IMG/VR virus record: IMGVR_UViG_3300037042_006682 | Coordinates: 64,001-128,000 of that record | From: a virus | DNA: 64,000 nt | Reading direction: 5' to 3' (one strand) | In this document: piece after piece, positions 40,179 to 54,972 of the stretch | Layout: each line of letters begins with the position of its first letter | How positions within the stretch are numbered: position 1 is the stretch's first letter | Program-made: the position numbers and the translations under genes | The notes under the pieces: generated by a model | The model's database searches: none | What the model was told of the DNA's origin: nothing | What the model saw: the letters and a program-made list of their open reading frames with translations, nothing else

Positions 40179-40352
40179 CACGCGCCTCCTCTGCTGGATC
40201 GTCTCTGGGGTATTGTAGGCCGCCGCAGGGGCGCTATCAAGGCGACGCGCACGCGCATACGCAGGCACAACGCCACCAAAAAGAAGAGCCGCCGTGGTTG
40301 CACCCACGAGCGGCTCGAGTCGGTCCAGGACAAACACAACGACCAGGGCCTT

Positions 40353-40829
40353 TTACCCCACCGCACCGCCGCGTGTCAAGCCCTCCACAAGCGCCCGCAG
40401 GCGCTGGCTCAGCGACCGGGCCTCGCCCTTCAGCGTCCATGGCCCCTCGAACTCCGCGCGCCTCTTGCCCACGAGCTTGTAGTACTTCGCGTCCTTCGCG
40501 GCGTGGTTCCGGTCCCGCTGGTGCCTCTGGATGTACTTGCGCCCGCGCGGCGTCTGCTGGTGCGGCTTCCGCCGCTTGAAGTACGGCAGCTTGGGCCCGT
40601 GGTGCAACGCCGCGACCCCGCGCGCGATGGCGTGCGCCTTCGGGGCGTCCGAGCGCCGCGGGGGCGTCTTCTTCCGCAGCCCCCCCACGATCGCCACCAC
40701 GGCGTGCCGCGTGTAGGGGTCCGCCGCCCGCGGCTTCTGCACCTTGATCGCGGCCCCCCCATGGGGCGTCTTCCCCTCGATCAGGGCCCGCAGGCGCGCG
40801 CTGAGCCGCTCCCCGCGCGTCAGCGCCAC
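40353..40829 (-). CDS. very basic protein with LSARLRALIEG leader (putative capsid-internal DNA-binding protein)
   Basis: K/R/H-rich; leader motif at both ends. Confidence 0.6.
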   Translation of the reverse strand: MALTRGERLSARLRALIEGKTPHGGAAIKVQKPRAADPYTRHAVVAIVGGLRKKTPPRRSDAPKAHAIARGVAALHHGPKLPYFKRRKPHQQTPRGRKYIQRHQRDRNHAAKDAKYYKLVGKRRAEFEGPWTLKGEARSLSQRLRALVEGLTRGGAVG

Positions 40830-40833
40830 GGCG

Positions 40834-41157
40834 TCAGAGGCTCCACGCATCCCAGACCGCCTCGAACTGCTTGTACGCCTCGGCCACGGCCGCCTGCGCC
40901 AGGAACAGCGTGTGGGCCTGCGTCGCCTCCCACGTGGCCTCGTAGTCCTTGCGCGGCACATCGACCTCGTAGTGCATCAGCGGGCGGATCCCCGCCATCT
41001 CCTCCCGCTTCGCCTTCAGCGCCCGCACCGCCTGAGCCAGGGCCTCGGCCGCCTTGAGGACGGGGTCCACCTTGGGCACCACCTTGCGGGCCTTGATGAC
41101 CGCCTCGGGGACCTTTACCTCGTCCAACTGCCGGATCAGCGCCTTCATGCTCCTCAT
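40834..41157 (-). CDS. putative internal head protein (leader MRSMKALIRQLDE)
   Basis: GGAGG RBS; shared leader. Confidence 0.65.
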   Translation of the reverse strand: MRSMKALIRQLDEVKVPEAVIKARKVVPKVDPVLKAAEALAQAVRALKAKREEMAGIRPLMHYEVDVPRKDYEATWEATQAHTLFLAQAAVAEAYKQFEAVWDAWSL

Positions 41158-41513
41158 ACGGGCCTCCCCATCGCGAGTTCCCACGCGTCCGTCACGCCCC
41201 ACTTGGCCTCGTCAATAGCGATCAGTTGCTCCTGGTACGCCGCCATCGCCTGGCGGTCCGCCCGGTCCAGCCCCTTGACCAGCTTGGCCAGGTCCGCGAC
41301 CTCCTTGTCGAACCGCGCCACCGCCGCATGCACGCCCTTGAGCACGGCCTCCGTCGGCACGTGCATCTGCTGGTTCCGCTGGTCGATCTCGCGCCGCCGC
41401 GCCTCCTTCGACTGGAAGTCCCCCGGCGCCACCTCGCGCCGCCGCTGGACCCCCTCGATCACCGCGATCCGCCGCTTGACCCCCTCGATCACCGCGCTCA
41501 TCCGCTGTGCCAT
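41154..41513 (-). CDS. putative internal head protein (duplicated leader AVIEGVKRR/AVIEGVQRR)
   Basis: GGAGGAG RBS; 30-bp tandem duplication 41441-41496. Confidence 0.65.
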   Translation of the reverse strand: MAQRMSAVIEGVKRRIAVIEGVQRRREVAPGDFQSKEARRREIDQRNQQMHVPTEAVLKGVHAAVARFDKEVADLAKLVKGLDRADRQAMAAYQEQLIAIDEAKWGVTDAWELAMGRPV

Positions 41514-41515
41514 CG

Positions 41516-41860
41516 TCACTCCTCCGTGTCGGAGTGGGCCGCGCCGTGCGCGAACCCCACCTGGAATAGCAGCCCATCGACGGCCTTGTTCAGCGCGATC
41601 ACGGCCGCCTGCATGCGGGGGTCCGTCGCCGGGCGGTCCAGCCCCTGGACCAGCTCCGCCACGCGCCCCGCCGCCTGCTGCAGCGCCGCCGCCTTGGCCC
41701 CCGCGGCCTGGCGCGCGTTGGCCACGCCCCGCGCGTCCTGCGGGGAGCGCCACGCCACCTGCATCCCGCTGGTGACCTGCCCCCAGTTCGCGGGCACGCC
41801 CTCGGCCAGCAGGCCCGAGGCGACCAGGCTCGCCTCGATCATCGTGCGCATGCGCGTCAT
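41516..41860 (-). CDS. putative internal head protein (MTRMRTMIE...LLAE)
   Basis: AAGGAGG RBS. Confidence 0.65.
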   Translation of the reverse strand: MTRMRTMIEASLVASGLLAEGVPANWGQVTSGMQVAWRSPQDARGVANARQAAGAKAAALQQAAGRVAELVQGLDRPATDPRMQAAVIALNKAVDGLLFQVGFAHGAAHSDTEE

Positions 41861-41869
41861 GGCGCCTCC

Positions 41870-42259
41870 TTACTCGGTCGCACCCCTGAATTTCCATTCC
41901 TTCTTGGCGAAGTCGTACCACGCCTGTAGCAGCGTGATCCCATTGCTGCCGCCAGCCCTGTGCTCCCACGAAATATCCAGTGGGATCTGCATCATGTTGT
42001 GCTGGGCGCTGTAGTGCCCCGCGCCCTTCACGACCACCGTGCTCATCACGGCCTCGAAAACCCCCGCCTTGCCCACTAGCTCGTCGCTCTTCACGATCAA
42101 ACGCCAGGGTCCAGCAGACGACAACTTGGCCGTCAACTTCACCGGCACCTTGAGGGCCTTGGAGACCTGCTGCTCCAGCGGCTTGATGTCGATCTCGTCC
42201 TCGCTCGGACCCTCAGTGGCCTCGTGCAACCGCCCGATCAGGGTGCTCATCTTCTGCAT
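41870..42259 (-). CDS. putative internal head protein (MQKMSTLIGRLHE)
   Basis: GGAG RBS; shared leader. Confidence 0.7.
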   Translation of the reverse strand: MQKMSTLIGRLHEATEGPSEDEIDIKPLEQQVSKALKVPVKLTAKLSSAGPWRLIVKSDELVGKAGVFEAVMSTVVVKGAGHYSAQHNMMQIPLDISWEHRAGGSNGITLLQAWYDFAKKEWKFRGATE

Positions 42260-42327
42260 GGTATCTCCATTCTCAGGGGCGCCACCGGCGCCGCGTTTGC
42301 TACTTCGCGAGCCCCGCGCGCGCCGCC

Positions 42328-42849
42328 CTACGGCAGCACGTAAATGGTGCTGACCCCGCGCTTGCGCGCCTCCGCCTGGGCCGCCTTGACCGCCTCGGCA
42401 TAGAGCATGTTGCCGCCGGGGGCGAACGCCTCGTCCGACCGCATGTCCGGGTCCTGCGTGCCAATGCCGAACATCCAGTTGCCGCGCCCCTTCGGGGCCG
42501 CCCCGTGGTTGAAGCGGTACAGGTTGGTCTCCACGTTGACCTTGCCGGTCGCCTCTTCCAAGCGCCGGATCAGGCTCTGCATCTTCGTCATGGTGTCCTC
42601 ACCCTTGATGGCCCGCTCGTAGGCCGCATCTTTGCCATGGGCCGCCGCGTCGCGTCCATGCGCCCGGATCGCCCGCTTGCCCTTGGCCGTCTTGTGCTTC
42701 GTGCCGGGCTCGTAGTAGCCGGCCTTGTTCCCGCCCGCCTTGCAGATCGCGAAGGCCGCGCCCTTGTCCTTGCCACCCTTGGTGACGCCCGCCACGCAGT
42801 GCCGCATGTAGGCGTCCGCCCGCTCGATCAACGCTTGCATCGACTCCAT
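42328..42849 (-). CDS. putative internal head protein, two leader+domain units fused
   Basis: MESMQALIE at the start; internal MTKMQSLIRRLEE at 42591 with its own GAGGA. Confidence 0.7.
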   Translation of the reverse strand: MESMQALIERADAYMRHCVAGVTKGGKDKGAAFAICKAGGNKAGYYEPGTKHKTAKGKRAIRAHGRDAAAHGKDAAYERAIKGEDTMTKMQSLIRRLEEATGKVNVETNLYRFNHGAAPKGRGNWMFGIGTQDPDMRSDEAFAPGGNMLYAEAVKAAQAEARKRGVSTIYVLP

Positions 42850-42859
42850 GCTCGCCTAC

Positions 42860-43231
42860 TCACACGCTCGCCAGGATCCGCACGGGGACCGGGCTCGTCG
42901 GCGCCGTGGTCCCCGGCGTGCCGGGGCTCGTCACGCAGCAGCACGTGAGCCCCACCCCGAACGCCAGGCCCTCCGGCACCGCGAACGACCGCTTGACCGC
43001 CGCGGGGACCATCAGCACGAGGTGCGGGTCCACGGACCCCGGCGCCGCGCTCACCGCGTTGTAGAACTTCACGTAGCTGGGGGCCCCCGCGTTGCCCGTG
43101 TTGTCGGCCTCCACGAGGTACAGCGTGCAGGGCGCCCCGAAGAGGTTGTTCTGCGCCGTCACGCCGAGGGCCGTGTCCACCGCGAGGCGGGTCGCGACCG
43201 GGTTCACCTGGGTACTGACTGCCATCACCAT
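42860..43231 (-). CDS. putative virion structural protein (beta-rich)
   Basis: GAGGA RBS; no E-leader; preceded by a 26-bp palindrome. Confidence 0.6.
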   Translation of the reverse strand: MVMAVSTQVNPVATRLAVDTALGVTAQNNLFGAPCTLYLVEADNTGNAGAPSYVKFYNAVSAAPGSVDPHLVLMVPAAVKRSFAVPEGLAFGVGLTCCCVTSPGTPGTTAPTSPVPVRILASV

Positions 43232-43249
43232 GCTCGTCCTCGTTTCCTC

Positions 43250-43275
43250 GCGCTGCGCATGCGCATGCGCAGCGC
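43250..43275. promoter_or_regulatory. 26-bp perfect palindrome GCGCTGCGCATGCGCATGCGCAGCGC
   Basis: intergenic; RY family. Confidence 0.65.
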
Positions 43276-44648
43276 TACCTTACCACCGCGCCCCCCGCCC
43301 TGTCCGCAAACTCGCGCAGGAGGGCCCCGAGGCCCCCGTCAACCCCCTCGCTCTGTGCCGCCCGCCCCAGCGCCAGCGCCTCGAAGCGCGCCCGCTGCGG
43401 GCCCGTCAGCACCACGCCGTTATAGTCCCCCAGCACATAGGCCGCGAAGGTCTCCGCGAACTCCTCCACCGCCGACTCTGCCCCGTAGGCCGTCGGCGCG
43501 GGCACATACCCCGCCTGCGGGCCCTCGCGCTCCTGGTCCGCCTTGCTGCGCGGGTCGAACCACGCCGCGAAGCGCGCCCGCGCCCCCGCCTTCATCACCT
43601 TGTACCAATAGCGATGGCCTAGCTCGTGTACTGCGATCTCCGCCACCACATCGGGCGTCCACCACCCCTTTGGGTTCAGGACAATCTCCTCGCTCGTGTT
43701 GTAATGCCCCGCAACCTTAAAGTTCACCCCAGACTTAGCCTTCTTTAACGTAAGCGCACGCGCCACAGGACGCACAAAAATCTCCCCATACCACACGCCC
43801 CCCATCCCCCGCTGTACCAGCGCCCGCTGCGCCGCTTGCAACCCTGCATGCACAGCCCGCATTACACCTATGTTCACGCTGCGCTCCCCAACGGGCGCTC
43901 CCGCAATGTCATCGGATCGTGCCAGGGCACTCAAATCCACTTGTGCACCTGGATCTGTCACGACTTTCATGCGCCCTAGACTGTACTCTAGCGGCGGGGC
44001 CTCCGCGACGACCGCGGCCGTGTTCGGCGAGACCTGCAACAGTTTAAGATAGGCGCGCAAGGCCGCCTGCACCTCGATGTCGACCGCCTTAACCGCATTG
44101 CCCTCGTTGCGCATCTCAAGCTGCCACGAGGTTAGCTCCCCCTCGTCCGTGGCCCCCGTTTGCGAGCGATTGCCCATGCGATCATTAAAGGCGCGCTTGG
44201 CCTCCGAATCTGGATATTCTACATCGAACCATTGCTGCTCCCGCCCCATCATATTTTGTAGCGCCTTATGGGCTACATCCAGATGCGGCAAAACCCCCTG
44301 CTCCGGCGCCTTTGAAAGAGCATGCCCCGCCACACGGGCTGGCATCTTTAGCACGGCATAGGCTCCCGCTTTGTAAGGGCGCCGCTCCATCGCAGTAAGG
44401 GCCGCCTTCGCAACATCCTGCGGCACCGCTATCCCAGCCGCCCGCACCAAGGCATCCTTCAGCGCCGCGATCCGAGCCTGCCCCTCGGCAAACCACGCGA
44501 GCACCTGGCCGCGATCTTTAGGGTCGCGGATCTGCGCCACCGTGGCCGCGGCCTTCACCCACTGCCCCCACCACTTGCGGACCCCCGCCAGCCACGCCTT
44601 GGTGCCCGGCTCGGGGGCCGCCTCCAGCAGGGTCAGCAGCTCACGCAC
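43275..44648 (-). CDS. leader-bearing protein with C-terminal zincin metallopeptidase (lethal-factor/MPTase-like)
   Basis: MRELLTLLEAA leader; AVHELGHRYW...YGAESAVEEFAETFAAY. Confidence 0.8.
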   Translation of the reverse strand: MRELLTLLEAAPEPGTKAWLAGVRKWWGQWVKAAATVAQIRDPKDRGQVLAWFAEGQARIAALKDALVRAAGIAVPQDVAKAALTAMERRPYKAGAYAVLKMPARVAGHALSKAPEQGVLPHLDVAHKALQNMMGREQQWFDVEYPDSEAKRAFNDRMGNRSQTGATDEGELTSWQLEMRNEGNAVKAVDIEVQAALRAYLKLLQVSPNTAAVVAEAPPLEYSLGRMKVVTDPGAQVDLSALARSDDIAGAPVGERSVNIGVMRAVHAGLQAAQRALVQRGMGGVWYGEIFVRPVARALTLKKAKSGVNFKVAGHYNTSEEIVLNPKGWWTPDVVAEIAVHELGHRYWYKVMKAGARARFAAWFDPRSKADQEREGPQAGYVPAPTAYGAESAVEEFAETFAAYVLGDYNGVVLTGPQRARFEALALGRAAQSEGVDGGLGALLREFADRAGGAVVR

Positions 44649-45036
44649 GGCGCACCTTCGCAGCCAGCGTACCGAGGGCGACCCCCCAGTCCGTCGCCGC
44701 GCTCGCCGCGCCCCGCAACCGCTGGTCCGCCGCCCGCACCGCGGCATCCTTCATCTGGTCCCCCGGCCAGAACAGCCCCATGCGGCCCAGCTCATAGCTC
44801 GTGGCTAGGGACCACACCTTCGCATCGTGCTTCTTCTTGACCAGGAGCACCTCGCGGTCAAAGCCCTCGACCCGCGCGTAGGCCCCCCAGTAGGAGCGCG
44901 CGGTCCCCGGCCGATCGCGCCCCATGATCCAGCCCTCCCACGTGATCGTCACGGGGCGCTTCGCCCCCGCCACCACCACGCGGACCGCGCCCGTGCCCTC
45001 GACCAGCGCCCGTAGGCGTGCGCTCAAGCAGGTCAT
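44641..45036 (-). CDS. putative internal head protein (LSARLRALVEG)
   Basis: GAGGAGG RBS; shared leader. Confidence 0.7.
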   Translation of the reverse strand: MTCLSARLRALVEGTGAVRVVVAGAKRPVTITWEGWIMGRDRPGTARSYWGAYARVEGFDREVLLVKKKHDAKVWSLATSYELGRMGLFWPGDQMKDAAVRAADQRLRGAASAATDWGVALGTLAAKVRRA

Positions 45037-45046
45037 CGCGCCCTCC

Positions 45047-45904
45047 TCAGTCCATCGTGCTGAAGATGTGGTACGCCAGCTTCGCATCGGACAGCGCCTT
45101 GTACAGCTCGCGGAACGTCATGCGCTTGATGTCGCTGAGGTTCGCCTGCACCCACAGGTAAAAGGCCTTGATCGCCGTCTTCTTTGCCCCATAGGTCGGC
45201 GGCATGATGATCGGCGTGTCGTCCCCCCCGTGGCCCGGCCGCGGCTTCTCCGACACGGAGAAGTCCGTCAGGGAGGCCTCCAGCGTGAAGGTCGGCGTCT
45301 CGACCTTGATCTGCGCCCCCGCGGCGCCCTGCGCGGGCTCCACATCGACCCCGCGCGACGACCCCTCGGTGAACTTGACGCGGTCCGCATACGCGGCCTT
45401 CCCACTCTCGGCATCCCGCACCTGCGCCGCCGTCTCGCGCGCGATCTGCACGGCCTGCGCGTACCCCTTGGCCTTCGCAATCGCCTTCAAGCCAGCCTCT
45501 AGGATCGCCACCGCCTTGGCGCTAGCGAAGCCGTCGTTGCGCGGGTCGAACCCGCTGAGGGTGAACGAGGACACCGTCTTGCCGCGCTTGCCCGCGTTGG
45601 CGAGGTCCAGGACATGCAGGTTCGTCATGAAGCGGTGCAGGCGCATGCCGTTGCGCTCCACCGTCTGCGCCATGGGCACCCCCGCATTCTGGTCCACATA
45701 GAAGCGCTCGGGCGCCTCCGCCTTGGGCAGCGCCTGCTGCGTCGCCCCCTGGATCACCGCCGCCATGCCCTGCGCGGGGCTCGCCGGGGGCGCCGGGGGC
45801 GTCGCCACCGTCTGCCCCTTGGGGTCCTTCCCGCCGGGCAGCACGCGCAGGGTCACGCCCGTCTTCGTCGTCGTCTCCACCCGCTCCAATAGCTGCCGCA
45901 TCAT
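45047..45904 (-). CDS. putative internal head protein (MMRQLLERVE)
   Basis: AAGGAG RBS; shared leader. Confidence 0.7.
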   Translation of the reverse strand: MMRQLLERVETTTKTGVTLRVLPGGKDPKGQTVATPPAPPASPAQGMAAVIQGATQQALPKAEAPERFYVDQNAGVPMAQTVERNGMRLHRFMTNLHVLDLANAGKRGKTVSSFTLSGFDPRNDGFASAKAVAILEAGLKAIAKAKGYAQAVQIARETAAQVRDAESGKAAYADRVKFTEGSSRGVDVEPAQGAAGAQIKVETPTFTLEASLTDFSVSEKPRPGHGGDDTPIIMPPTYGAKKTAIKAFYLWVQANLSDIKRMTFRELYKALSDAKLAYHIFSTMD

Positions 45905-45915
45905 GAGTCTGCTCC

Positions 45916-47001
45916 TTAGCTCCACGTCGAAGACGTGCCTTTACGGGCAATTTTATGATCGTCCAACCAGGCCCCTAAGTCCTTGTAGGCCACGCCCTTG
46001 AGGGCTGCGGGCTGCGCCTGCAGCAGCTTGAACAGCTTGGCCGCGGCACTCGGCCCCTTCTCCACGGTCCCCGTGTAGTAGGGGCTGCTCTGCTGGAAGT
46101 CGCTGTTCGGCGAGTAGGCGCGGAAGGTCTTCCACGTCACCTTGAGCGCGAAGTCCTTGCCGTCCACGACCAGCTCCGTGTCCCCGCCCTCGGGGGCCAC
46201 GCGGCCCGCCGGCACGGCCTGTTCCCGCCAGCTCCCCTGCTGCTGCAGCCAGTCCGGCCGGTGTGCCCCCTCCCACTTCGCGATGACCGCGCCCTGCGCC
46301 TCGGCCACCGCCTTCCCGACCTTGTCCTTGATCGCGTCGAAGCCGTCGCTGTCCGCGAGTTTGGCAAAATGCAGGATGTTCTGCGGGAGCATCGCGTCCC
46401 AGGCGCGCGCCATCTGCCCCCCGCGGTACCCCGTCCCCAGCTCGGCCACGCGCAGCTGGCGCTTCCCCTTCACGGGCAGCTCCTCCAGCCGGTAGCTCTC
46501 CCCGTAGTAGCCGATGGTGAGCCGCGCTCCCGCCCCTGTGAATACCATGGTGTCGTTGCTGCGCTTCTCCAGCTTCTCCAGCAGCACGCGCAGCGAGGCC
46601 TGCTGCGCCCCCTCGCTCCGCTCGCCCTGGCCCAGCGCACGGGAGGCCGCATCCTTCGGCGCGTACCCGTCCTTCTGCGCGGAGGCATACGCCTTCTGGA
46701 GGCGCTCCCACCACCCCGCCACGGCCTGCCCCGCTGCTGCCTCCGACTTAAAGGCCTGCCCCTGGAACATCGCCTCCCAGGTCGGCAGCCCCTTGCGATC
46801 GACACGCCACGCCGTGCCCTCGTTGTTATCCTGAATGATCCGCACGGCTACGTCCACGGGGCCCACCTTGAAGGTCCGCCCGTAGGCCATCCGCTTGCCA
46901 TCCGGGCTCGGGTGCTCCTCCCATCCCTTGAGGTAGAGCGCCTTCGCCTCCTTGTGTATGTCAAACTTCTCCAACAGGGTGTGTATCGTCGGGATAGTCA
47001 T
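45916..47001 (-). CDS. putative internal head protein (IHTLLE; internal LRVLLEKLE)
   Basis: GGAGG RBS; leader present twice. Confidence 0.7.
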   Translation of the reverse strand: MTIPTIHTLLEKFDIHKEAKALYLKGWEEHPSPDGKRMAYGRTFKVGPVDVAVRIIQDNNEGTAWRVDRKGLPTWEAMFQGQAFKSEAAAGQAVAGWWERLQKAYASAQKDGYAPKDAASRALGQGERSEGAQQASLRVLLEKLEKRSNDTMVFTGAGARLTIGYYGESYRLEELPVKGKRQLRVAELGTGYRGGQMARAWDAMLPQNILHFAKLADSDGFDAIKDKVGKAVAEAQGAVIAKWEGAHRPDWLQQQGSWREQAVPAGRVAPEGGDTELVVDGKDFALKVTWKTFRAYSPNSDFQQSSPYYTGTVEKGPSAAAKLFKLLQAQPAALKGVAYKDLGAWLDDHKIARKGTSSTWS

Positions 47002-48605
47002 CACTTGCCTCCGTAGACCGCGTGGTCCGCCGCCTTGACGAGCAGCTTGCAAATCGCCTGATACTTGGGGTCGTGACCGCTCGATGGAATCGCGCGGCTC
47101 TCCGGGGCCACCTTCACCATCCCGCTCAGCATCCGCCCGAGGTACATCACGATCTCGGGATGCACCTTCTGCAGCTTCCCTACCGCCTCGCGTATCCAGT
47201 CGAGGTTGACCTCCTCAGTCATCCCCCCCACCGCCTCGGTGAAGCCCTTGGGGTCCTTCAGGGCGATGTCGACCGTGCGCCCCATGCGCTGCTGCACCAC
47301 CAGGAAGCGGTCCCCCTCGACCTCCTTGGCCACCGCCAGGAGGTAGTTCTGGTTCAGCGCCCGCTTGCCGTCCGCCGCCGCCATCAGGGCATCGTTCTTC
47401 TTCGCCGACTGCCCGCTCGTCGTCGCGCTCGGGCTCGCCAGCAGCACGGCCTCCGCGGCCTGCGGGACCCCGCTGATCAGCTGCCAGCCCTTGCGCCCCT
47501 TCCAGAGCGTCACGAAGGCCTGGGAGTCCGCCGCCGGCCCGTGGTCCTTATTCACAAAGACCAACCACTCCTTGCTCGTGCCCTCCGCCCACGGGGCCAT
47601 CCCCGCCCGGCGGAAGGCCGCCTTGGCCGCCCCCTCCAGCGTCCGCTCGCTGGGCGCGCGGTCCCCCGCCGCCTCGCCCATGGCCCCCGCCTTCTTGCGC
47701 GCGATCGTCCCGCACAAGGCCTTGGGATCGCTCACGCCCCCCTTGGCCTTCATGTACTTCACGCAGTTCCCAAACTTCTCCCCCTTGCGCCCCTTGAAGG
47801 CCCCCGTCTTCGGGTTGATGTACTTCGCGCTGAGCTGCTGCTGCTTCGACGCCTTCTTCTTCTTGGCCGCCGCCTCCATCAACGCCGCGACCCAGTGCCC
47901 CACGGCCTCGCTGGCCTCCTCGGCGTCCATCTCCTCGTCGTCGTCCTCGGGCCCCTCGCAGTCCTCGCAGGCCGCCCCGTCGCTCTCATCCCGCGCCTCG
48001 CAGGCCCGCGGCTCGCCCGTCACCGGGCACACACCCTCGTCGCCCATGTCCTCGCCCTCGTCCCCACCGTCCTCCTCGTCCTCGTCGTCCTCCACCGCCT
48101 CAAACCTCTTCGCCGCCGGCGCGAAGGCCTGCGTCGTGCTGAAGTACCGCTGCAGGATGAGATCCGCCATCTCGCGCCCGCTGATCCGCACCATGAGCAG
48201 GTACCAGTAGATCGGCATGTTCTCGGGCTGCGCCCGCATGAGCCGCGCCGCCTTCGGGGCCACCTTCGCGATGTTGCGCAGCGCCAGCTTGAACGCCTCG
48301 CGCGGCCGGTTCGCCAGCACGTCCTGCGCGTCCGCCATGTTGTCCGCCCCCAGCAGCGCGGGGAGGTCCTCGCGCGGGATCGCCTTCAGGAGCGCGCGCT
48401 GGTTGTCAAAGATCATGTTGGAGAGGTCCAGCTTCCCCTGGTCATCCTTCCACGCCGCCGGCGCGTCCTTCTCCCACATCCTGAGGATCTTGCTGCTCAC
48501 CTTGAAGGCCCCCGGCCGCACCGGGGTGTCCTCGCCCGCCATCGCCATCGCCGCGGGGCCCGTCTGGCGCTCCATCAATGATCCCAACCGCTCGCTCAAC
48601 CGCAT
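47001..48605 (-). CDS. multi-segment putative internal head polyprotein (MRLSERLGSLME)
   Basis: acidic linker; repeated xxE|A sites (RFEA, LMEA, MGEA, FTEA). Confidence 0.65.
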   Translation of the reverse strand: MRLSERLGSLMERQTGPAAMAMAGEDTPVRPGAFKVSSKILRMWEKDAPAAWKDDQGKLDLSNMIFDNQRALLKAIPREDLPALLGADNMADAQDVLANRPREAFKLALRNIAKVAPKAARLMRAQPENMPIYWYLLMVRISGREMADLILQRYFSTTQAFAPAAKRFEAVEDDEDEEDGGDEGEDMGDEGVCPVTGEPRACEARDESDGAACEDCEGPEDDDEEMDAEEASEAVGHWVAALMEAAAKKKKASKQQQLSAKYINPKTGAFKGRKGEKFGNCVKYMKAKGGVSDPKALCGTIARKKAGAMGEAAGDRAPSERTLEGAAKAAFRRAGMAPWAEGTSKEWLVFVNKDHGPAADSQAFVTLWKGRKGWQLISGVPQAAEAVLLASPSATTSGQSAKKNDALMAAADGKRALNQNYLLAVAKEVEGDRFLVVQQRMGRTVDIALKDPKGFTEAVGGMTEEVNLDWIREAVGKLQKVHPEIVMYLGRMLSGMVKVAPESRAIPSSGHDPKYQAICKLLVKAADHAVYGGK

Positions 48606-48631
48606 CGCTCGTCCCTCATTCCCTTGGTTAT

Positions 48632-48649
48632 CGCGCATGCGCATGCGCG
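48632..48649. promoter_or_regulatory. 18-bp RY palindrome CGCGCATGCGCATGCGCG
   Basis: intergenic, upstream of the 48605 start. Confidence 0.6.
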
Positions 48650-48655
48650 GCTCGC

Positions 48656-49435
48656 TCATCTCTCGCCCGGCAGCGCGAAGTCCACCGGCACGCGCGCCGC
48701 CCGCAGGCCCGCCCGCAGCGCCGCGAGGTCCATCCCCGGCAGCGCCGCCGCGTGCTCGTCCACCCAGCGCGCGAACATCGTCCCCACCGCGTACTTGCCC
48801 GCGGCCCCCGTGCGGATCGCCACGTCCCGGCCATCCCACATGCGCAGGCTCACGGCTGGCCAGCTGTAGGACAGCACGAAGTCCTTCCCCCGCAGCTCCT
48901 CGCTGCTATGCGCCAGCCCCACGGGCCGCCGCTGGCTCTCCTCAAAGGGCGTCCGCAGCGTGGCCGCCCCGTCGATCAGGAACCGCTCGGGGCCCTGGAG
49001 CCCGCGGTTCGCGGCCTCCGCCGCCGCCTGCACCCGCGCCCAGACGCGCGGCCACCCCGCCTCGCCGTAGGCCGCCCGCAGCGCCGCCCGGAAGCCCTCC
49101 ACCGCCGCCTCGACCATGGCCCCCGCGCGCCCCGCCTCGACCCGCTGGGCATCGCGCGCCGCCCACTGCGCCTTCGTCAGCTTGCGCCCCCGCGGCGGGG
49201 CCGCCATGGGCACCCGCGGCGTCGCCGGCACGCTCACGCGCCCCACGTGCCCCAGCCCCGTGAGGTCCACCACGAGCACATCCACGAGGTCGCGCGGATA
49301 CCGCGTGCCCTGCGCGCAGAACACCCGCACGTCGTCGACCGCCCAGCCCAGCTCGGCGTTCCACACGCTCTCCACGCTCGCGTTGTACCGGGTCCCCCGC
49401 TCGATCGCTTCCAGCAGTTGTCGCATCGCAGCCAC
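48656..49435 (-). CDS. putative internal head protein (MRQLLEAIE)
   Basis: GGAGG RBS; shared leader. Confidence 0.65.
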   Translation of the reverse strand: MAAMRQLLEAIERGTRYNASVESVWNAELGWAVDDVRVFCAQGTRYPRDLVDVLVVDLTGLGHVGRVSVPATPRVPMAAPPRGRKLTKAQWAARDAQRVEAGRAGAMVEAAVEGFRAALRAAYGEAGWPRVWARVQAAAEAANRGLQGPERFLIDGAATLRTPFEESQRRPVGLAHSSEELRGKDFVLSYSWPAVSLRMWDGRDVAIRTGAAGKYAVGTMFARWVDEHAAALPGMDLAALRAGLRAARVPVDFALPGER

Positions 49436-49632
49436 GTCTACCCTCCGGCAAGCGCGCGCCCCCTCTCGTCTGCTCGCTGATCGACTCTACCGACCCGCCC
49501 GCCCCCTGCCAAGAAATCCCCACGCCCCGCTCGCGCTTTACCCCGCCGCGAGCCACGCGAGCACCGCCAGGACGAGCCCCGCCACGGCCAGCCCGATGAG
49601 CGCCGCGAGGGCCACGTCGCGCCCGCCCGGCC

Positions 49633-49947
49633 CTACGCCCACGCCGGCCCCACCGGGGGCTGCGAGATCGGCCCCTCGGCCGCCCCCGTCGCGCGCAGGG
49701 CCTCCGTGAGGGCCGCCACGCACAGCGCCACGTGCCGCCGCGTCGCCGCCGCATCCCGCCCCAGGCCCCCGGCCTCCGCGAGCTTCGCCAGCAGCGCCGC
49801 CGCATTGCGCACCGCCGCCCAGGCGTCCGCCGCCTCCGCGGGGTCCCCGCCCCGCTTGCCGTCCAGCAGCAGCCCCAGCGCCGCGCGCATCAGCGCGTTC
49901 GCCTCGGCCTCCGCCAGCGCCTCCATCCTCTCGATGAGCTGTTTCAT
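49633..49947 (-). CDS. putative internal head protein (MKQLIERMEALAE)
   Basis: shared leader. Confidence 0.6.
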   Translation of the reverse strand: MKQLIERMEALAEAEANALMRAALGLLLDGKRGGDPAEAADAWAAVRNAAALLAKLAEAGGLGRDAAATRRHVALCVAALTEALRATGAAEGPISQPPVGPAWA

Positions 49948-49957
49948 GGCCCCCAGC

Positions 49958-50263
49958 CTACCGCCGCGCGGGCCGCCCCGCAAGCTCGTCCCCCGCCCCC
50001 GATGGCACGAGCCCCGCCGCCTCCGCCTTCTCCTGCAGCGCCTTGAGCGCGAACGCAAACAGCTCCGCCGGGGGATGTCCATAGGCCCGCCCCAGGGCCC
50101 GCGCGCGCTCCCAGGTGTCCCTCGTCACGAGCATCATCACCAGGTCGTCGTGCTGGAGGGCCTCATCCGGCCGCGGGTCGAGCTTGCCATCCTCGGCCCC
50201 CGCGATCTCCCGCTGCGGCCCCCCGCGCGGCCCCCCGCGCGCCTGTGCCCGCATCACCATCAA
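49958..50263 (-). CDS. hypothetical protein
   Basis: overlap with upstream stop. Confidence 0.45.
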   Translation of the reverse strand: MMVMRAQARGGPRGGPQREIAGAEDGKLDPRPDEALQHDDLVMMLVTRDTWERARALGRAYGHPPAELFAFALKALQEKAEAAGLVPSGAGDELAGRPARR

Positions 50264-51018
50264 ATGGCCGTCTGGTCGAGCTTGCCAACGCCGTGCCCCG
50301 CCCCGTCCCAGGTCTTGTCGTCAAACTTGTACGGCGCCGCCCCGCTCCCCACCGCATCCTTCTGCCGCCCCACGTAGGCCACGCCCTTCATGGGCTGCTG
50401 CACCACCTGCCGGAACGTCAGGGCCACCGTGGCGAGCCGTGGCACGCCGTTCGCGAAGCAGAGGCTGTACGTCACGTCGCAGCCCGTCATCACCGCGAAG
50501 ATCGCATCCCCGCCCTTCTCGTTCCAGTTAAGCCCCGGCGCGTGCAGGATCGCGATCGGCGGGGGGTACGCCTCCACGTGCGTCTCCCCCTGCGTGTACA
50601 GCGGGTAACAGAACGCCCGCAGGTAGCGGATGGCCCCCGCGACGTCCGCGTTCCACCCCGGCGCGTCCGCCCCCTTCGTCATCCCAAAGGGGTCGAAGAG
50701 CTTCTCCATCACCGTGCGGTCGCCCTCCGGCTTCATGAGCCGGCTCATGGTGACCTCGAACGAGATCGTGCGCCCCCCGTTGCTGCCCCACGTCGCGAGC
50801 GCGTGCGAGGCCCCAGGGATCTCGCTGAAGTTCCAGCCGATCTCGATCGTGTCGGAGATGCTCTCAGGCCAGTACTGGAAGGCGCGCTGCGGGAGCGCGG
50901 GCTTCCCCGCGTCCGCCGCCAGCGCGTCGATCCCGCACATGCTCATCCACGCCGGCTTCTCGCCGGTGGGCCCGTCCATGATAATGCTGGCGATGCCGCC
51001 GAAGACCCCGAGGGCCAT
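50260..51018 (-). CDS. contractile tail tube-initiator/baseplate protein (gp48/gp54, CIS-tube-like)
   Basis: FQYWPESISD...W....IPG.SH....W..NGGRTISF...PPP...GVPRLATV.LTF. Confidence 0.75.
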   Translation of the reverse strand: MALGVFGGIASIIMDGPTGEKPAWMSMCGIDALAADAGKPALPQRAFQYWPESISDTIEIGWNFSEIPGASHALATWGSNGGRTISFEVTMSRLMKPEGDRTVMEKLFDPFGMTKGADAPGWNADVAGAIRYLRAFCYPLYTQGETHVEAYPPPIAILHAPGLNWNEKGGDAIFAVMTGCDVTYSLCFANGVPRLATVALTFRQVVQQPMKGVAYVGRQKDAVGSGAAPYKFDDKTWDGAGHGVGKLDQTAI

Positions 51019-51044
51019 GGCCTACCTCCCGCGGCGCCCCGCGC

Positions 51045-51953
51045 TCAGTACTCGACCCCTAGCGCGTCATCCACCAACTTGGCTGTCCGCGCATCGAGCT
51101 TGCGTGCTAGCGTCCGCAGGGCCACGGGGGAATAACCCATCTTGCGCATCATGGGATTGGCCCGCTGCAGGAACATCTCCAGGGGGGTCCCCAATGCCTT
51201 GACCAGCGTCACGACCGGCTTGTCCAACCCGCCCCCCATCAAGGTCGTGAGCTTGTCCTGCAGCAACAGGGCATACACATAGGCCAACGCGGCCTCCGCG
51301 TCTTCTGGATTCGTGTCCATCACGGCCTCCGCGACCGCCTTGCCCTTGCCGCCCGCCGCGCAGCCCCCCTCATCATCCGCCTTGGCCTTCCCCTTCCCCT
51401 TGGCCGCCTTCTTCTTGCCCTTGCGCCCTTCGTCGAGGATCGCCCGGAGCGACGCCAGCAGGGGGTCCGCCCCCTCCATCTCGGGCTCCGCGTCCGCCGC
51501 GCTGCCGTTGGGCTCCTCGGGCTCCAGGTCCTGCGCGCCCTCGTCCTCCAGGTCCGCGCCCTCGTCGCCCTCGGCGATGGCCCAGCCCACGGAGCCCTCC
51601 GCGTCGATCGCCAGCATGGTCTCGTCGTCGAGCATGATCACGGCGCCCGGCGGGTCCTCATCCAGCGCCACCCCCACGACCTCGGCCGTGGTGTCCGCCG
51701 GCACCTCGACGGCCTCGCCGTCCTCCGTGTACGCAATCGTGTCGCTGACCGCGACGAGGGGCACGCCCTCCTCCCAGCCCGCGAACAGGTCCCCCTCAGC
51801 CATCGCGTTGGGCTCCTCCGGCTCCAGGGCCTCCCCGTCGCCTTCAAACCCCGCGTCCACCATCTCGCCTTCGGCCTCCGCGCCCTCGCGCACCACGGCC
51901 ACGGCCTCGCCCGCCTGCCCCTTCAGGGCCTCCATCAATGCTCGCATCGTCAT
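51045..51953 (-). CDS. acidic prohead core/internal protein-like (MTMRALMEAL)
   Basis: GAGGAG RBS; E-rich; LEPEEPN repeated; LRAILDE internal. Confidence 0.6.
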   Translation of the reverse strand: MTMRALMEALKGQAGEAVAVVREGAEAEGEMVDAGFEGDGEALEPEEPNAMAEGDLFAGWEEGVPLVAVSDTIAYTEDGEAVEVPADTTAEVVGVALDEDPPGAVIMLDDETMLAIDAEGSVGWAIAEGDEGADLEDEGAQDLEPEEPNGSAADAEPEMEGADPLLASLRAILDEGRKGKKKAAKGKGKAKADDEGGCAAGGKGKAVAEAVMDTNPEDAEAALAYVYALLLQDKLTTLMGGGLDKPVVTLVKALGTPLEMFLQRANPMMRKMGYSPVALRTLARKLDARTAKLVDDALGVEY

Positions 51954-52533: not shown

Positions 52534-54972
52534 CTAGCGCGTGATCGTGAACGTGAAGCGCACCTCGCCGTTCGCCACCGCCGCCGTTGCCCTCGCCTGG
52601 AGCGTAACCGCCCCCGCCCCGGCGAGCAAGGAAGTCAGGTCCACCGCGCCGCCGCCCGGCGCCACGCGCCACACCAGGTCGTCGTAGCCCGTGCGCACGT
52701 CGTCCAGGCCCCACGGGGTGTCCCCGTCCACGTCCACCCAGATCGACTGCTCCTCGCCGATCTCGTTGAGGTCGCCCCGCTGCTCCACCGTCAGGAGCAC
52801 CTGCGTGGCCCCCGCGAGGTCCTCCACGTCGAAGGCGTGCGCCACCGTGGCCCCCGCCTCGACCGCCAACAGCACGTGCTGGCTCGTCAGCACGAGGGCC
52901 CCCGTCACCGGCAGCACGTGCCCGTCCATCGGCAGCACGTCCGCGGGCCACCCCGGCGCATCGAAGGTCTCCGTGAACGGCAGCACCGTCACGAGGGTCT
53001 CCTGCAGCGCGCCCACCGCGAGGCCCGGCACCCCCATCCCGATCGCCGTCGTGTAGACCAGCGCGTACTCGCTCACCCGCACGTGGATCGGCACCAGCGT
53101 CGCCTCGATCTTCGCGATGAGGCGCCGGACCGCCGCGTCCAGCGGGAGCCCAAACCCGAAATAGGTGTCCGCCCCCCAGGGCCCGCCCTGCGGCGTGATC
53201 TCCACCCGGATGCGGTTGCTCCGGCAGTACCCGCAATCCACCAGCAGCTCCGGCCAGTAGCGCACCGCCACGTCCGCCCCCAACGCCGGCGTGGGCGCCG
53301 CGGGGTCCTGCCCCACCACGACGTCCCAGTGCCACCGCAGGGGGTCCAGCGGGTCGACCCCCGTCCCCACCTCCGCATCGATCCACCACACGGCATCCCC
53401 CAGCGCCGGCGGCACGCCCCCCGCCCGGTCGTACACCGAGAGCCCGAAGACCCCCTTGCGCACCCCCCGGAAGTCCCCCAGGGCCTCCTTGAGGATCGAC
53501 ACCGTAACCACGTGCCCCCCCATCAGGTTGTAGCCCGCGGCCTCCGCCGCCGTGAGGTCCCGCACCGCCACCACGCGCGCGGGGTCCCGCTCCGGGTGGG
53601 CATAGCCCTGCGCCACGTCCAGCGCGAAGGCGAGCCCCACGGAGAGCCCCGCCGGGGAGAAGTCCTCGTACAGGAAGCAATCGTCGATCAGCGTCTTCCA
53701 GCGATCCGCCTCCACGGCGTCCCGCCAGTCGTAGTACCGCACGTCCGCGTTGATGTCGTCGAACCGCACGGCCCGCGGCTCGATCGTCGTGTACCACTTG
53801 TCCCCCACGTGATGCACCGCCGGCGCCGGCAGGAGCCCCGCGAACCCCGCGTCGCCCAGTAGGTGCAGGGGCCGCGCCGCCACCGCGAAGCCGCTCACCG
53901 CCCCGCGGATCCGGTAGCTCTCCGCCGTGGCCTTCAGCCCGAAGAACTTGTGCGCGTGCGCGATCGTCGCGCGCTGCACGCTCTCCGGGTCGTTCGCATC
54001 GTTCTCAAACCCAAAGTCCCGCGCCAGCACGTCCAGCAGGCTCGCGGGCCGCGCCGCCACGTAGTAGCCCGCCACCCGCCAGTCCGCCGTGATCGGCGTG
54101 GTCCCCCACGGCAGGTCCCAGGTCCCCGTCCAATCGGGGCTCGCGAGCGCGCGCTCGTAGTCCACGGTCCCCCGCGCCTCCCCGAGGTCCGCCTCGCCCG
54201 TGCCGGGGTCCACGAAGTACAGCACGCCATAGCCATCGTAGGGGTCGTTCGGCACGTCCACCAGCGCCACGCGGTCCACCCACCAGGGGCTGCTGTACCA
54301 CAGCACGAGCCCCGCCGCGGCCACCGTCAGGGGCCCCGACGTGTCCATGGGCCGCAGGCGCCAGGGCGCCCCCGGCAGGGCCACCGGCGGCGTCTGCGTG
54401 CCGTCCCCAGCCCCCACCGCCACGCCGTACTGCGTGGCCGGCCACAGCCCCAGGGGCACCCCCGCCACCCAGACCTCGTTCGCCTCGGACTGCGCGGGGG
54501 CCGCCGCGTCGAAGAGGCGCGTCCGCACGTTCACCACGCGGTAGCGCGCGCCCCCCCACTCTACCCACCACTGCGGGGCCACCCGGCTGATGGCCGCATA
54601 GGGCGCCCACGCCACGCCGAAGGCCTCGTCCCCGTAGGGGAAGGCGCTCGCCAGCGCGGGCTCCCGCAGCACCACCACGGGGCCATGCGTCGCGTCCACC
54701 ACCCACGTCGCGCTCTCAAAGTACAGCCACTCCTCGGTCCCGAGCCGCCCCCGCACCTGGAAGGGATCCCGCTGCGCCGGCAGCGCCGCGATCTGGTCGC
54801 GCACCGCCTCCAGCTCGTCCGCCCACGTCCCCAGCAAGCGCTGCAGGACGTCCCCCTGGCCCGCGTCCTCCGCCTGCCAGAGCTGCGGCACGTTGCCCCA
54901 CAGCACGCGCCGCGCCCAGCTCCCCTGGCCGAAGCGCCCGCTACCAAATGGCTCGTTTCCAAAGGTCGGCAA
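52534..54972 (-). CDS. baseplate wedge protein (P2 gpI/T4 gp7-like)
   Basis: LLDVLARDFGF...QRATIAHAHKFFGLKAT; ...LVPIHV. Confidence 0.7.
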   Translation of the reverse strand: MPTFGNEPFGSGRFGQGSWARRVLWGNVPQLWQAEDAGQGDVLQRLLGTWADELEAVRDQIAALPAQRDPFQVRGRLGTEEWLYFESATWVVDATHGPVVVLREPALASAFPYGDEAFGVAWAPYAAISRVAPQWWVEWGGARYRVVNVRTRLFDAAAPAQSEANEVWVAGVPLGLWPATQYGVAVGAGDGTQTPPVALPGAPWRLRPMDTSGPLTVAAAGLVLWYSSPWWVDRVALVDVPNDPYDGYGVLYFVDPGTGEADLGEARGTVDYERALASPDWTGTWDLPWGTTPITADWRVAGYYVAARPASLLDVLARDFGFENDANDPESVQRATIAHAHKFFGLKATAESYRIRGAVSGFAVAARPLHLLGDAGFAGLLPAPAVHHVGDKWYTTIEPRAVRFDDINADVRYYDWRDAVEADRWKTLIDDCFLYEDFSPAGLSVGLAFALDVAQGYAHPERDPARVVAVRDLTAAEAAGYNLMGGHVVTVSILKEALGDFRGVRKGVFGLSVYDRAGGVPPALGDAVWWIDAEVGTGVDPLDPLRWHWDVVVGQDPAAPTPALGADVAVRYWPELLVDCGYCRSNRIRVEITPQGGPWGADTYFGFGLPLDAAVRRLIAKIEATLVPIHVRVSEYALVYTTAIGMGVPGLAVGALQETLVTVLPFTETFDAPGWPADVLPMDGHVLPVTGALVLTSQHVLLAVEAGATVAHAFDVEDLAGATQVLLTVEQRGDLNEIGEEQSIWVDVDGDTPWGLDDVRTGYDDLVWRVAPGGGAVDLTSLLAGAGAVTLQARATAAVANGEVRFTFTITR

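What the first reader, a model, noticed from the sequence alone, without database searches (positions are those of the whole stretch)
40353..51953. Array of ~14 unrelated proteins sharing a short N-terminal 'L-x-x-L-[ILMV]-E' leader: a capsid cargo-loading system
Seen leaders: LSARLRALIEG, MKALIRQLDE, MSAVIEG, MRTMIE, MSTLIGRLHE, MQALIE, MRELLTLLE, LSARLRALVEG, MRQLLERVE, IHTLLE, LSERLGSLME, MRQLLEAIE, MKQLIERME, MRALME. The downstream domains appear unrelated. Established: T4 internal proteins carry an N-terminal capsid-targeting peptide removed by the gp21 prohead protease after (L/I)-x-E. Inference: a modular cassette in which an amphipathic address tag is attached to diverse payloads (peptidase, basic DNA-binding proteins, unknowns) for packaging and injection. 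This would be a large uncharacterised pool of injected effectors or anti-defence proteins and a possible engineering tag.
Basis: partly seen in the sequence, partly recalled or inferred. Interest (0 to 1): 0.8.

Follow-up and report, generated by a model that had tools for sequence, protein, structure and literature searches.

The report
T4-style capsid-loading leaders on phage proteins
Fourteen neighbouring, mostly unrelated genes of an uncultured T4-like phage start with a short tag like the one phage T4 uses to load proteins into its head and then cuts off, so they are probably head-packaged, injected proteins: a large new example of a known system, not yet tested at the bench.

Summary
On the minus strand of window 40353-51953, 14 of 19 consecutive genes begin with a 6-25-residue helical leader ending in L-[ILMVHD]-E (two have M or V in place of L). 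A start-anchored form of the motif occurs 17 times in the 161-kb genome against 1.7 in shuffles, and 10 of those lie in this 11.6-kb array. Third codon positions vary freely, so selection acts on the peptide.

The genome is a distant T4-type phage. It has a gp23-family capsid protein and a gp21-family prohead protease. No HK97-type protease or radical-SAM enzyme was found. The leaders match the T4 capsid targeting sequence in length and in the L/I-x-E cleavage rule.

Orthologues keep the leader. A 169-kb relative carries about 26 such genes in two arrays, and few payloads are shared. Between two ~95%-identical relatives, whole leader-gene cassettes come and go, and two junctions sit exactly at the leader.

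The best reading, at about 0.68, is a T4-like head-cargo system. It is a new member of a known kind. This scan has reported the same kind on other uncultured T4-like phages. Neither cleavage nor packaging has been shown. One payload has an M34-like zinc peptidase fold; the others remain unknown.

The parts
51045..51953 (-). g2, 302 aa, leader MTMRALME|A (51930-51953). Acidic N-terminal half, then an internal leader-like site LLASLRAILDE|GRKGKK (51429-51461) before a basic stretch.
   Evidence: no Pfam or PHROG hit
50260..51018 (-). g3, 252 aa, no leader. Conserved structural gene with a weak CIS_tube match. It interrupts the array and is not cargo.
   Evidence: PF19266, E 0.0024, below cut-off; 48% identical homologue in relative G003
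49633..49947 (-). g5, 104 aa, leader MKQLIERME|A
48656..49435 (-). g6, 259 aa, GTG start, leader (V)AAMRQLLEAIE|R
47001..48605 (-). g7, 534 aa, leader MRLSERLGSLME|R. After an acidic linker comes the internal site HWVAALME|AAAKKKK (47874-47897), followed by a basic stretch.
45916..47001 (-). g8, 361 aa, leader MTIPTIHTLLE|K and internal site ASLRVLLE|K (46576-46599). Its C-terminal domain is paralogous to that of g9.
45047..45904 (-). g9, 285 aa, leader MMRQLLERVE|T
   Evidence: protein atlas gave no lead
44641..45036 (-). g10, 131 aa, basic (pI 10.5), long leader MTCLSARLRALVE|G
43275..44648 (-). g11, 457 aa, GTG start, leader (V)RELLTLLE|AAPEPG. Payload is a helical bundle plus a zinc metallopeptidase domain (HELGH at 341-345, EEFAE at 395-399).
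   Evidence: Orthologues keep the leader MRxLIRRLEE|AAP. AF2 model pLDDT 68: the leader is a separate short helix followed by a Pro/Gly linker. Foldseek and VIA-align both point to M34-type zincins (anthrax lethal factor catalytic domain Z 9.1, PPEP-2 Z 8.4).
42860..43231 (-). g12, 123 aa, no leader. It is conserved at about 47% identity in all three relatives, inside their arrays. Function unknown.
42328..42849 (-). g13, 173 aa, two modules: leader MESMQALIE|R plus a basic 'AFAIC' domain, then an internal full leader MTKMQSLIRRLEE|A (42553-42591) plus a second domain.
   Evidence: the relative's homologue has the same domain followed by an internal MRSMIRQLEE|G and different downstream modules
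41870..42259 (-). g14, 129 aa, leader MQKMSTLIGRLHE|A
41516..41860 (-). g15, 114 aa, leader MTRMRTMIE|A
41154..41513 (-). g16, 119 aa, leader MAQRMSAVIE|G repeated ten residues later as RRIAVIE|G
40834..41157 (-). g17, 107 aa, leader MRSMKALIRQLDE|V
40353..40850 (-). g18, 165 aa, very basic (pI 11.7), long leader ..GERLSARLRALIE|G. A second copy, LSQRLRALVE|GLTRGGAVG, sits at the C-terminus (40383-40412).

Best explanation
The leaders are this phage lineage's version of the T4 capsid targeting sequence. A short N-terminal amphipathic helix would dock each protein onto the scaffolding core while the prohead assembles. The gp21-type prohead protease would then cut after the final Glu of the L-x-E motif. 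The mature payload would stay in the head with the DNA and enter the host at infection. Leader-like sites inside longer proteins (g2, g7, g8, g13) and at the end of g18 would be extra cut sites that release separate modules or remove acidic pro-pieces from basic domains.

Shown here: the motif, its restriction to gene starts, its conservation across relatives while payloads turn over, and the presence of the matching protease and head type. Inferred: docking, cleavage, packaging and injection.
For: 1. Head machinery. Peptidase_S77 is found in one 947-residue frame split by an intein. Its C-extein aligns to T4 gp21 residues 96-153, including GVSSRGxGS. The gp23 family is matched at E 2e-63, and the best GenBank capsid hits are T4-type phages at about 31% identity. 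No HK97-type protease and no radical-SAM enzyme were found.

2. Fit to the published rule. gp21 cuts after Glu in L/I-x-E. The T4 targeting sequence is 10-19 residues long; residues 4 and 7 matter for targeting and residues 8 and 10 for processing (PMC9026906). T4 N-termini read from AF158101 are IPII/IPIII MKTYQEFIAE|A, gp24 MAKINELLRE|S, Alt MELITELFDE|D, gp67 MEGLIE|A and gp21 MNEPQLLIE|T. Here we have MKALIRQLDE|V, MSTLIGRLHE|A, MQSLIRRLEE|A, MQALIE|R and MRTMIE|A. Twelve of the 14 have Leu at P3. The residue after Glu is Ala, Gly or Thr in 9 of the 14, and mostly small in the relatives.

3. Internal control. This phage's own head proteins carry the motif: protease MSGKLLTE|T, a coiled-coil tail on the protease with about 19 L/I-x-E sites, the capsid protein MEARNILTE and KNLSE|D, and a gene between portal and protease with ..LGLSTMVE|D.

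4. Specificity. 17 hits against 1.7 expected, 10 of them in the array; almost none at other gene starts.

5. Selection on the peptide. In 26 leaders of a 58% GC relative, codon positions 1 and 2 are informative and position 3 is not.

6. Modularity. g11 orthologues at 46-75% identity keep the leader. Peptidase-domain homologues in two other phage contigs have no leader. Relative G003 has about 26 leader genes, and only about 6 of the 19 leader proteins here have a homologue there. Two ~95%-identical relatives differ by at least six cassette changes, and two junctions lie exactly at the leader.

7. Accessibility. In the g11 model the leader is a separate helix followed by a Pro/Gly linker.
Against: - There is no experimental evidence. 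The phage is uncultured and no virion proteome exists.
- Position 7 of the 10-residue leader, a targeting determinant in T4 IPIII (Phe), is Arg or Gln here, so the docking contacts must differ.
- Two leaders have Met or Val rather than Leu or Ile at P3.
- Several leaders contain two possible Glu sites, so the exact cut is uncertain.
- The arrays lie beside baseplate genes rather than head genes. A low-GC contig shows similar leaders right after sheath and tube genes.
- The S77 match is only just at Pfam's cut-off (27.4 against 27 bits), and it depends on the intein splicing out.
- Payload functions are unknown except for one, so 'injected effectors' is a guess.
Confidence: 0.68

Rival explanations
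1. The tagged proteins are prohead core or scaffold accessories, like T4 gp67, gp68 and gp22. They would use the leader to enter the core, be chopped by the protease and leave the head, so nothing is delivered to the host.
For: g2 and g7 have long acidic stretches like T4 gp67. Several proteins carry more than one L-x-E site. The motif is shared with the scaffold-like tail of the protease.
Against: About 19-26 different proteins per genome, with fast turnover between close relatives, is not how essential scaffold parts behave. One payload is an enzyme-like zinc peptidase. Many are basic, as T4 internal proteins are.
Confidence: 0.12
2. The leader addresses proteins to the contractile tail or baseplate (tube lumen or spike), as cargo signals do in extracellular contractile injection systems, and not to the head.
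For: The array follows baseplate genes (P2 gpI-like at 52534-54972, a CIS_tube-like gene inside the run). A low-GC contig has two leader genes directly after sheath and tube genes.
Against: The leader matches the head protease's cut rule and the N-termini of this phage's own head proteins. No tail-loading signal of this form is known. The second array lies downstream of the head genes. Roughly 5,000 residues of distinct cargo is a lot for a tube lumen.
Confidence: 0.07
3. The leader is an N-terminal helix with another job, such as oligomerisation, a degradation or timing tag, or binding to a shared partner or chaperone. It would have nothing to do with virion loading.
For: Only sequence evidence exists. 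An earlier finding in this scan showed that a shared phage N-terminal tag can belong to a modifying enzyme rather than to capsid sorting (e1-127136).
Against: No radical-SAM enzyme is present. The tag ends in the specific cut motif of the protease that the phage encodes and matches T4 leaders in length. The same motif recurs at module joints inside proteins, which a start-of-protein tag would not need.
Confidence: 0.1
4. The conservation is at the DNA or RNA level, a repeated regulatory or translational element overlapping the start codons, and the peptide similarity is a by-product.
For: The motif sits at start codons, and an upstream ATGACGACN is partly conserved in a relative.
Against: Third codon positions carry almost no information. 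Arg and Leu use up to six different codons each across 26 leaders. Copies also occur far from any start codon.
Confidence: 0.02

Closest known systems
Phage T4 capsid targeting sequence on internal proteins IPI, IPII, IPIII and Alt, removed by prohead protease gp21 (Mullaney and Black 1996, as reviewed in PMC9026906 and PMC3012670)
   Same: A short N-terminal propeptide on otherwise unrelated proteins, ending in L/I-x-E and often 10 residues long with Glu at position 10 and a hydrophobic residue at positions 4 and 8. The same protease family and head type are present. The gene set varies between related phages.
   Different: - About 19 tagged genes here and about 26 in a relative, against four or five in T4.
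- They sit in long tandem arrays.
- The consensus differs (MRSLIRRLEE or MxxLIE against MKTYQEFIAE), and position 7 is basic rather than Phe.
- Full leaders also lie inside proteins.
- No payload is homologous to a T4 internal protein.
- Nothing has been shown experimentally.
Ejection proteins of giant phages (SPN3US, phiKZ) processed by their prohead protease (PMC5694885, PMC10052503)
   Same: Many head-internal proteins with N-terminal propeptides, cut after Glu by a related protease and thought to be delivered to the host.
   Different: Those propeptides are mostly longer than 100 residues and the cut motif is A/S/G-x-E. Here the leaders are 6-25 residues with Leu at P3, as in T4.
Cargo-loading peptides of encapsulins, and N-terminal cargo signals of extracellular contractile injection systems (from general knowledge; not tested here)
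   Same: A short portable peptide addresses diverse cargo to a phage-derived protein shell or tube.
   Different: Encapsulin peptides are usually C-terminal and are not cleaved. Contractile-injection signals are about 50 disordered residues and target the tube. Neither is linked to a prohead protease motif.

Membership tests
T4-type capsid targeting sequence / internal protein system | The phage encodes a gp21-family (Peptidase_S77) prohead protease | tested here: met
   PF03420 hits in one 947-residue frame, 27.4 bits combined against a 27-bit cut-off. The GVSSRGxGS block aligns to T4 gp21. Relatives G001-G003 also have it, at up to 69 bits.
T4-type capsid targeting sequence / internal protein system | T4-type head: gp23-family major capsid protein with an N-terminal pro-piece | tested here: met
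   PF07068, E 2e-63. Alignment to T4 gp23 shows a conserved pro-piece (KWxxLLEG) and a candidate site, KNLSE|D.
T4-type capsid targeting sequence / internal protein system | Short N-terminal propeptide ending in L/I-x-E | tested here: met
   All 14 leaders end in hydrophobic-x-E within 6-25 residues. Twelve have Leu at P3, one Met and one Val.
T4-type capsid targeting sequence / internal protein system | Targeting determinants at leader positions 4 and 7 (hydrophobic in IPIII) | tested here: inconclusive
   Position 4 is Leu or Ile in the 10-residue leaders. Position 7 is Arg or Gln instead of Phe, and position 5 is hydrophobic instead.
T4-type capsid targeting sequence / internal protein system | The leader is shared while the mature parts are unrelated and vary between related phages | tested here: met
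T4-type capsid targeting sequence / internal protein system | The proteins are present in proheads and virions, and the propeptide is removed by the protease | not testable with these tools
   The phage is uncultured and no proteome exists. The closest GenBank records are unannotated metagenomic phages.
M34-type zinc metallopeptidases (payload of g11 only) | HExxH with a third zinc ligand Glu about 50 residues downstream, on a zincin fold | tested here: inconclusive
   HELGH at 341-345 and EEFAE at 395-399 are invariant in 10 homologues. Foldseek's best hits are zinc peptidases, at E 0.04 only. VIA-align gives lethal factor catalytic domain Z 9.1, PPEP-2 Z 8.4 and PPEP-3 Z 8.2 for residues 218-429. 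There is no Pfam hit.

The most novel reading that the evidence does not exclude
In this lineage the leader is both an address tag and the joint at which payload cassettes are exchanged by recombination. This gives each phage a fast-changing pool of 20-30 head-packaged, protease-released proteins, about a tenth of its genes. The pool includes an M34-like metalloprotease and two-module pro-proteins, all delivered with the DNA to act on the host before any phage gene is expressed.
Probability: 0.35. Interest if true: 0.65.

Novelty: new member of a known kind. Interest (0 to 1): 0.45.

Why it matters
If the tag works as in T4, about 8% of the 161-kb contig, roughly 19 genes, encodes proteins that enter the host together with the DNA. 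Such proteins act before transcription starts, so they are good candidates for counter-defence or host take-over functions, and nearly all of them are of unknown function. The case extends the T4 mechanism to a distant, high-GC, uncultured branch. It shows how far the cargo set can grow. It also gives sequence-level evidence that the leader marks the boundary at which cargo genes are swapped. The leader is also a candidate packaging tag for phages of this group.

It does not reveal a new principle. Reviews of T4 already suggest that the targeting sequence lets T4-like phages load varied proteins, and this scan has reported similar leader families in other uncultured T4-like phages.

Tried and rejected
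- Pfam and PHROGs on all 19 genes of the run gave no significant hit for any payload.
- The protein atlas gave no lead for g9 or g7.
- A profile search of g11 against solved structures found nothing.
- Megablast of 18 kb against GenBank phages found no match.
- tblastn of g11 against GenBank phages found one unannotated metagenomic phage only.
- A single-protein scan of viral contigs with the baseplate protein found no relative.
I reached the relatives through the search for related loci with the g11 alignment instead.
- A search for T4 late-promoter boxes (TATAAATA) and a sigma-70/terminator scan gave nothing usable for timing of expression.
- A degenerate DNA pattern for MRxLIRRLEE across IMG/VR found the three known relatives and one low-GC contig. 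The other hits were an unrelated family with the motif inside a protein.
- The DNA-level repeat explanation was rejected on codon evidence.
- A radical-SAM partner enzyme was looked for and is absent.
- A second prohead protease type (HK97 S78) is absent.


Full report
**What is there**

The window is positions 64001-128000 of a 161,208-bp IMG/VR virus record. The record is 67% GC and nearly all its genes are on the minus strand. Third-position GC traces an unbroken chain of minus-strand genes from 52521 down to 39564. I named these g1 to g19 and placed their starts behind Shine-Dalgarno-like sequences.

The leaders are 8 to 25 residues counted from the start codon. They come in three related forms:
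- a short form, M-x-x-[LMV]-[IM]-E (g2, g13, g15, g16);
- a 9-10-residue form, M-[KR]-x-L-[IL]-x-x-[LMVI]-x-E (g5, g6, g9, g11, g14, g17);
- a long form, L-S-x-R-L-[RG]-[AS]-L-[IVM]-E (g7, g10, g18).

g8 (MTIPTIHTLLE) fits none of these exactly.

The g11 orthologues show that these forms replace one another: LLTLLE|AAP in some corresponds to LIRRLEE|AAP in others.

**Is it more than chance?**

A start-anchored regular expression hits the coding strand of the whole genome 17 times, against 1.7 +/- 1.3 in codon shuffles. Ten of the 17 hits are in the 11.6-kb array and two more are in a second cluster.

With a crude automatic gene caller, which misses or mis-starts five array genes, 9 of 15 array genes carry a leader in their first 25 residues, against 8 of 159 elsewhere (p = 3e-7). 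Of those eight, five form a second cluster at genome 308-1844 and about 10.6 kb, and one lies between the portal and protease genes.

The payloads are mutually unrelated by blastp, apart from a basic segment shared by g13 and g18 and a C-terminal domain shared by g8 and g9, seen through a relative.

**Peptide or DNA?**

I aligned 26 leaders from a 58% GC relative, where codon choice is freer. Codon positions 1 and 2 carry up to 2.3 bits, while position 3 carries 0.1-0.8 bits. Arg and Leu each use up to six codons. Selection is therefore on the peptide.

**What kind of phage is it?**

Peptidase_S77, the T4 gp21 prohead protease family, is found in one 947-residue frame interrupted by an intein after ELDHP. 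The part after the intein aligns to T4 gp21 residues 96-153, including GVSSRGxGS. The frame then continues into about 350 residues of coiled coil with about 19 L/I-x-E sites and a weak likeness to T4 gp22, so it looks like a protease-scaffold fusion.

The capsid protein is gp23-family (E 2e-63). Its best GenBank matches are T4-type phages at about 31% identity. No HK97-type protease and no radical-SAM enzyme are present.

**Comparison with T4**

Published work states the following (PMC9026906; see also PMC3012670):
- gp21 cuts after Glu in L/I-x-E.
- T4 internal proteins carry 10-19-residue propeptides called capsid targeting sequences. In IPIII, residues 4 and 7 govern targeting and residues 8 and 10 govern processing.
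- The internal proteins of T-even phages are diverse, with only this sequence conserved.

I read the T4 N-termini from AF158101: IPII/IPIII MKTYQEFIAE|A, gp24 MAKINELLRE|S, Alt MELITELFDE|D, gp67 MEGLIE|A and gp21 MNEPQLLIE|T. The leaders here have the same shape: MKALIRQLDE|V, MSTLIGRLHE|A, MQSLIRRLEE|A, MQALIE|R, MRTMIE|A.

Twelve of the 14 have Leu at P3. The residue after Glu is Ala, Gly or Thr in 9 of the 14. Position 7 differs: it is Arg or Gln here and Phe in T4.

The phage's own head proteins carry similar sites. The protease begins MSGKLLTE|T. The capsid protein has MEARNILTE and KNLSE|D. The gene at the position of T4 genes 67/68 has ..LGLSTMVE|D.

In the AlphaFold model of g11, the leader is a separate low-confidence helix (residues 2-10) followed by a Pro/Gly linker.

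**Relatives**

g11 has homologues at 46-75% identity, all from uncultured sources, and the full-length ones keep the leader. Three IMG/VR contigs of 106-169 kb hold it, and all three encode the S77 protease. Two further contigs hold only the peptidase domain, in proteins that have no leader.

I read the 168,688-bp relative G003 in full. It has 37 regex hits on its coding strand against 5.6 in shuffles. They fall in two arrays, at 79.4-89 kb and 138-147.5 kb, and amount to about 26 leader genes with the consensus M-R-S-L-I-[RE]-[RQ]-L-E-E. Of the 19 leader proteins of the present genome, only about six have a homologue there.

Two relatives that are ~95% identical in shared DNA differ by at least six whole-cassette insertions, deletions or replacements within 12 kb of array. 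In one case identity is perfect through the leader and is lost at the first codon after it. In another, identity begins inside the leader. The leader is thus a module boundary, possibly a recombination joint.

**Internal sites**

- g13 is two modules, each behind its own leader. Its homologue in the relatives has the same first domain followed by an internal MRSMIRQLEE|G and then different downstream modules. One of these is a stand-alone leader gene in the present genome, and in the relative's protein a VLDE|R site lies 11 residues before that module begins.
- g2 and g7 each have a leader-like site between an acidic stretch and a basic one.
- g18 ends in a leader copy. T4 Alt is also processed at its C-terminus (PMC9026906).

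**Payloads**

Only g11 has a recognisable fold. Its HELGH and EEFAE motifs are invariant. Two independent structure aligners place residues 218-429 nearest to M34-type zinc peptidases, with modest scores. Several payloads are strongly basic (g18 pI 11.7, g10 pI 10.5), as T4 internal proteins are. The rest gave nothing.

**Verdict**

The most likely mechanism, at about 0.68, is T4-like: dock to the scaffold core, cut after Glu by the gp21-type protease, stay in the head, enter the host with the DNA.

The rivals are:
- scaffold accessories that are degraded and expelled (0.12);
- another role for the helix (0.10);
- tail-directed cargo (0.07);
- a DNA-level element (0.02, tested here with the result against it).

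This is a new member of a known kind. What stands out is the size of the cargo set, the tandem arrays, the internal leaders and the recombination junctions at the leader. This scan has already reported the same kind of leader family on other uncultured T4-like phages, and a note on this same genome had listed the second cluster.

Noticed in passing
window 40337-40412: g18 ends with a leader copy, LSQRLRALVE|GLTRGGAVG, and a TAA stop (40353-40355). g19 starts five codons later in the same frame. The pair may be a two-module protein split by a stop codon, or g19 may have lost its own leader.
   Followed up: partly
L006:2515-2540 and L006:3338-3358 (also L004:3035-3057): A 254-residue leader gene is present in one relative and absent from another that is ~95% identical. 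It is flanked on both sides by the same hairpin sequence, ACGCGAACCCAGGTTCGC. This recalls the promoter/stem-loop cassettes that mediate shuffling in T4-type phages (PMC2839356).
   Followed up: partly
L031:2-1139 (IMGVR_UViG_3300042731_005539, 41% GC): A small low-GC contig has a tail sheath gene and two tube genes, followed by genes starting MKNLIRRLDE and MRDLIRRLEE. The same leader therefore exists in a very different phage background, next to tail genes.
   Followed up: partly
genome 24440-27280, outside the window (L001, L002): The prohead protease is interrupted by an intein directly after ELDHP. It is fused at its C-terminus to about 350 residues of coiled coil rich in L/I-x-E sites, apparently a protease-scaffold fusion.
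   Followed up: partly
window 42860-43231: g12 is a leaderless 123-residue protein, conserved at about 47% identity inside the leader arrays of all three relatives. It has no family hit.
   Followed up: no
L004:10001-12650: One relative has two tandem copies of the g11-type peptidase gene. The other has one copy that is a hybrid of the two, consistent with unequal crossing-over.
   Followed up: partly
L020-L027, L032: An unrelated family on small contigs of about 59% GC carries MSLLIRRLEE inside a protein, 57 residues from its end. It is probably a chance likeness to the leader.
   Followed up: no
genome 308-1844 and 9970-10659, outside the window: There is a second cluster of leader genes: MGTLSSRLRALVE|G, MRALLRRLEE|G, MRALLTHLEE|G, ..LRALAADLRTIVE|W and ..LAGRLAALLE|A. 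It lies at the very end of the contig, which is estimated 88% complete, so part of this array may be missing.
   Followed up: partly
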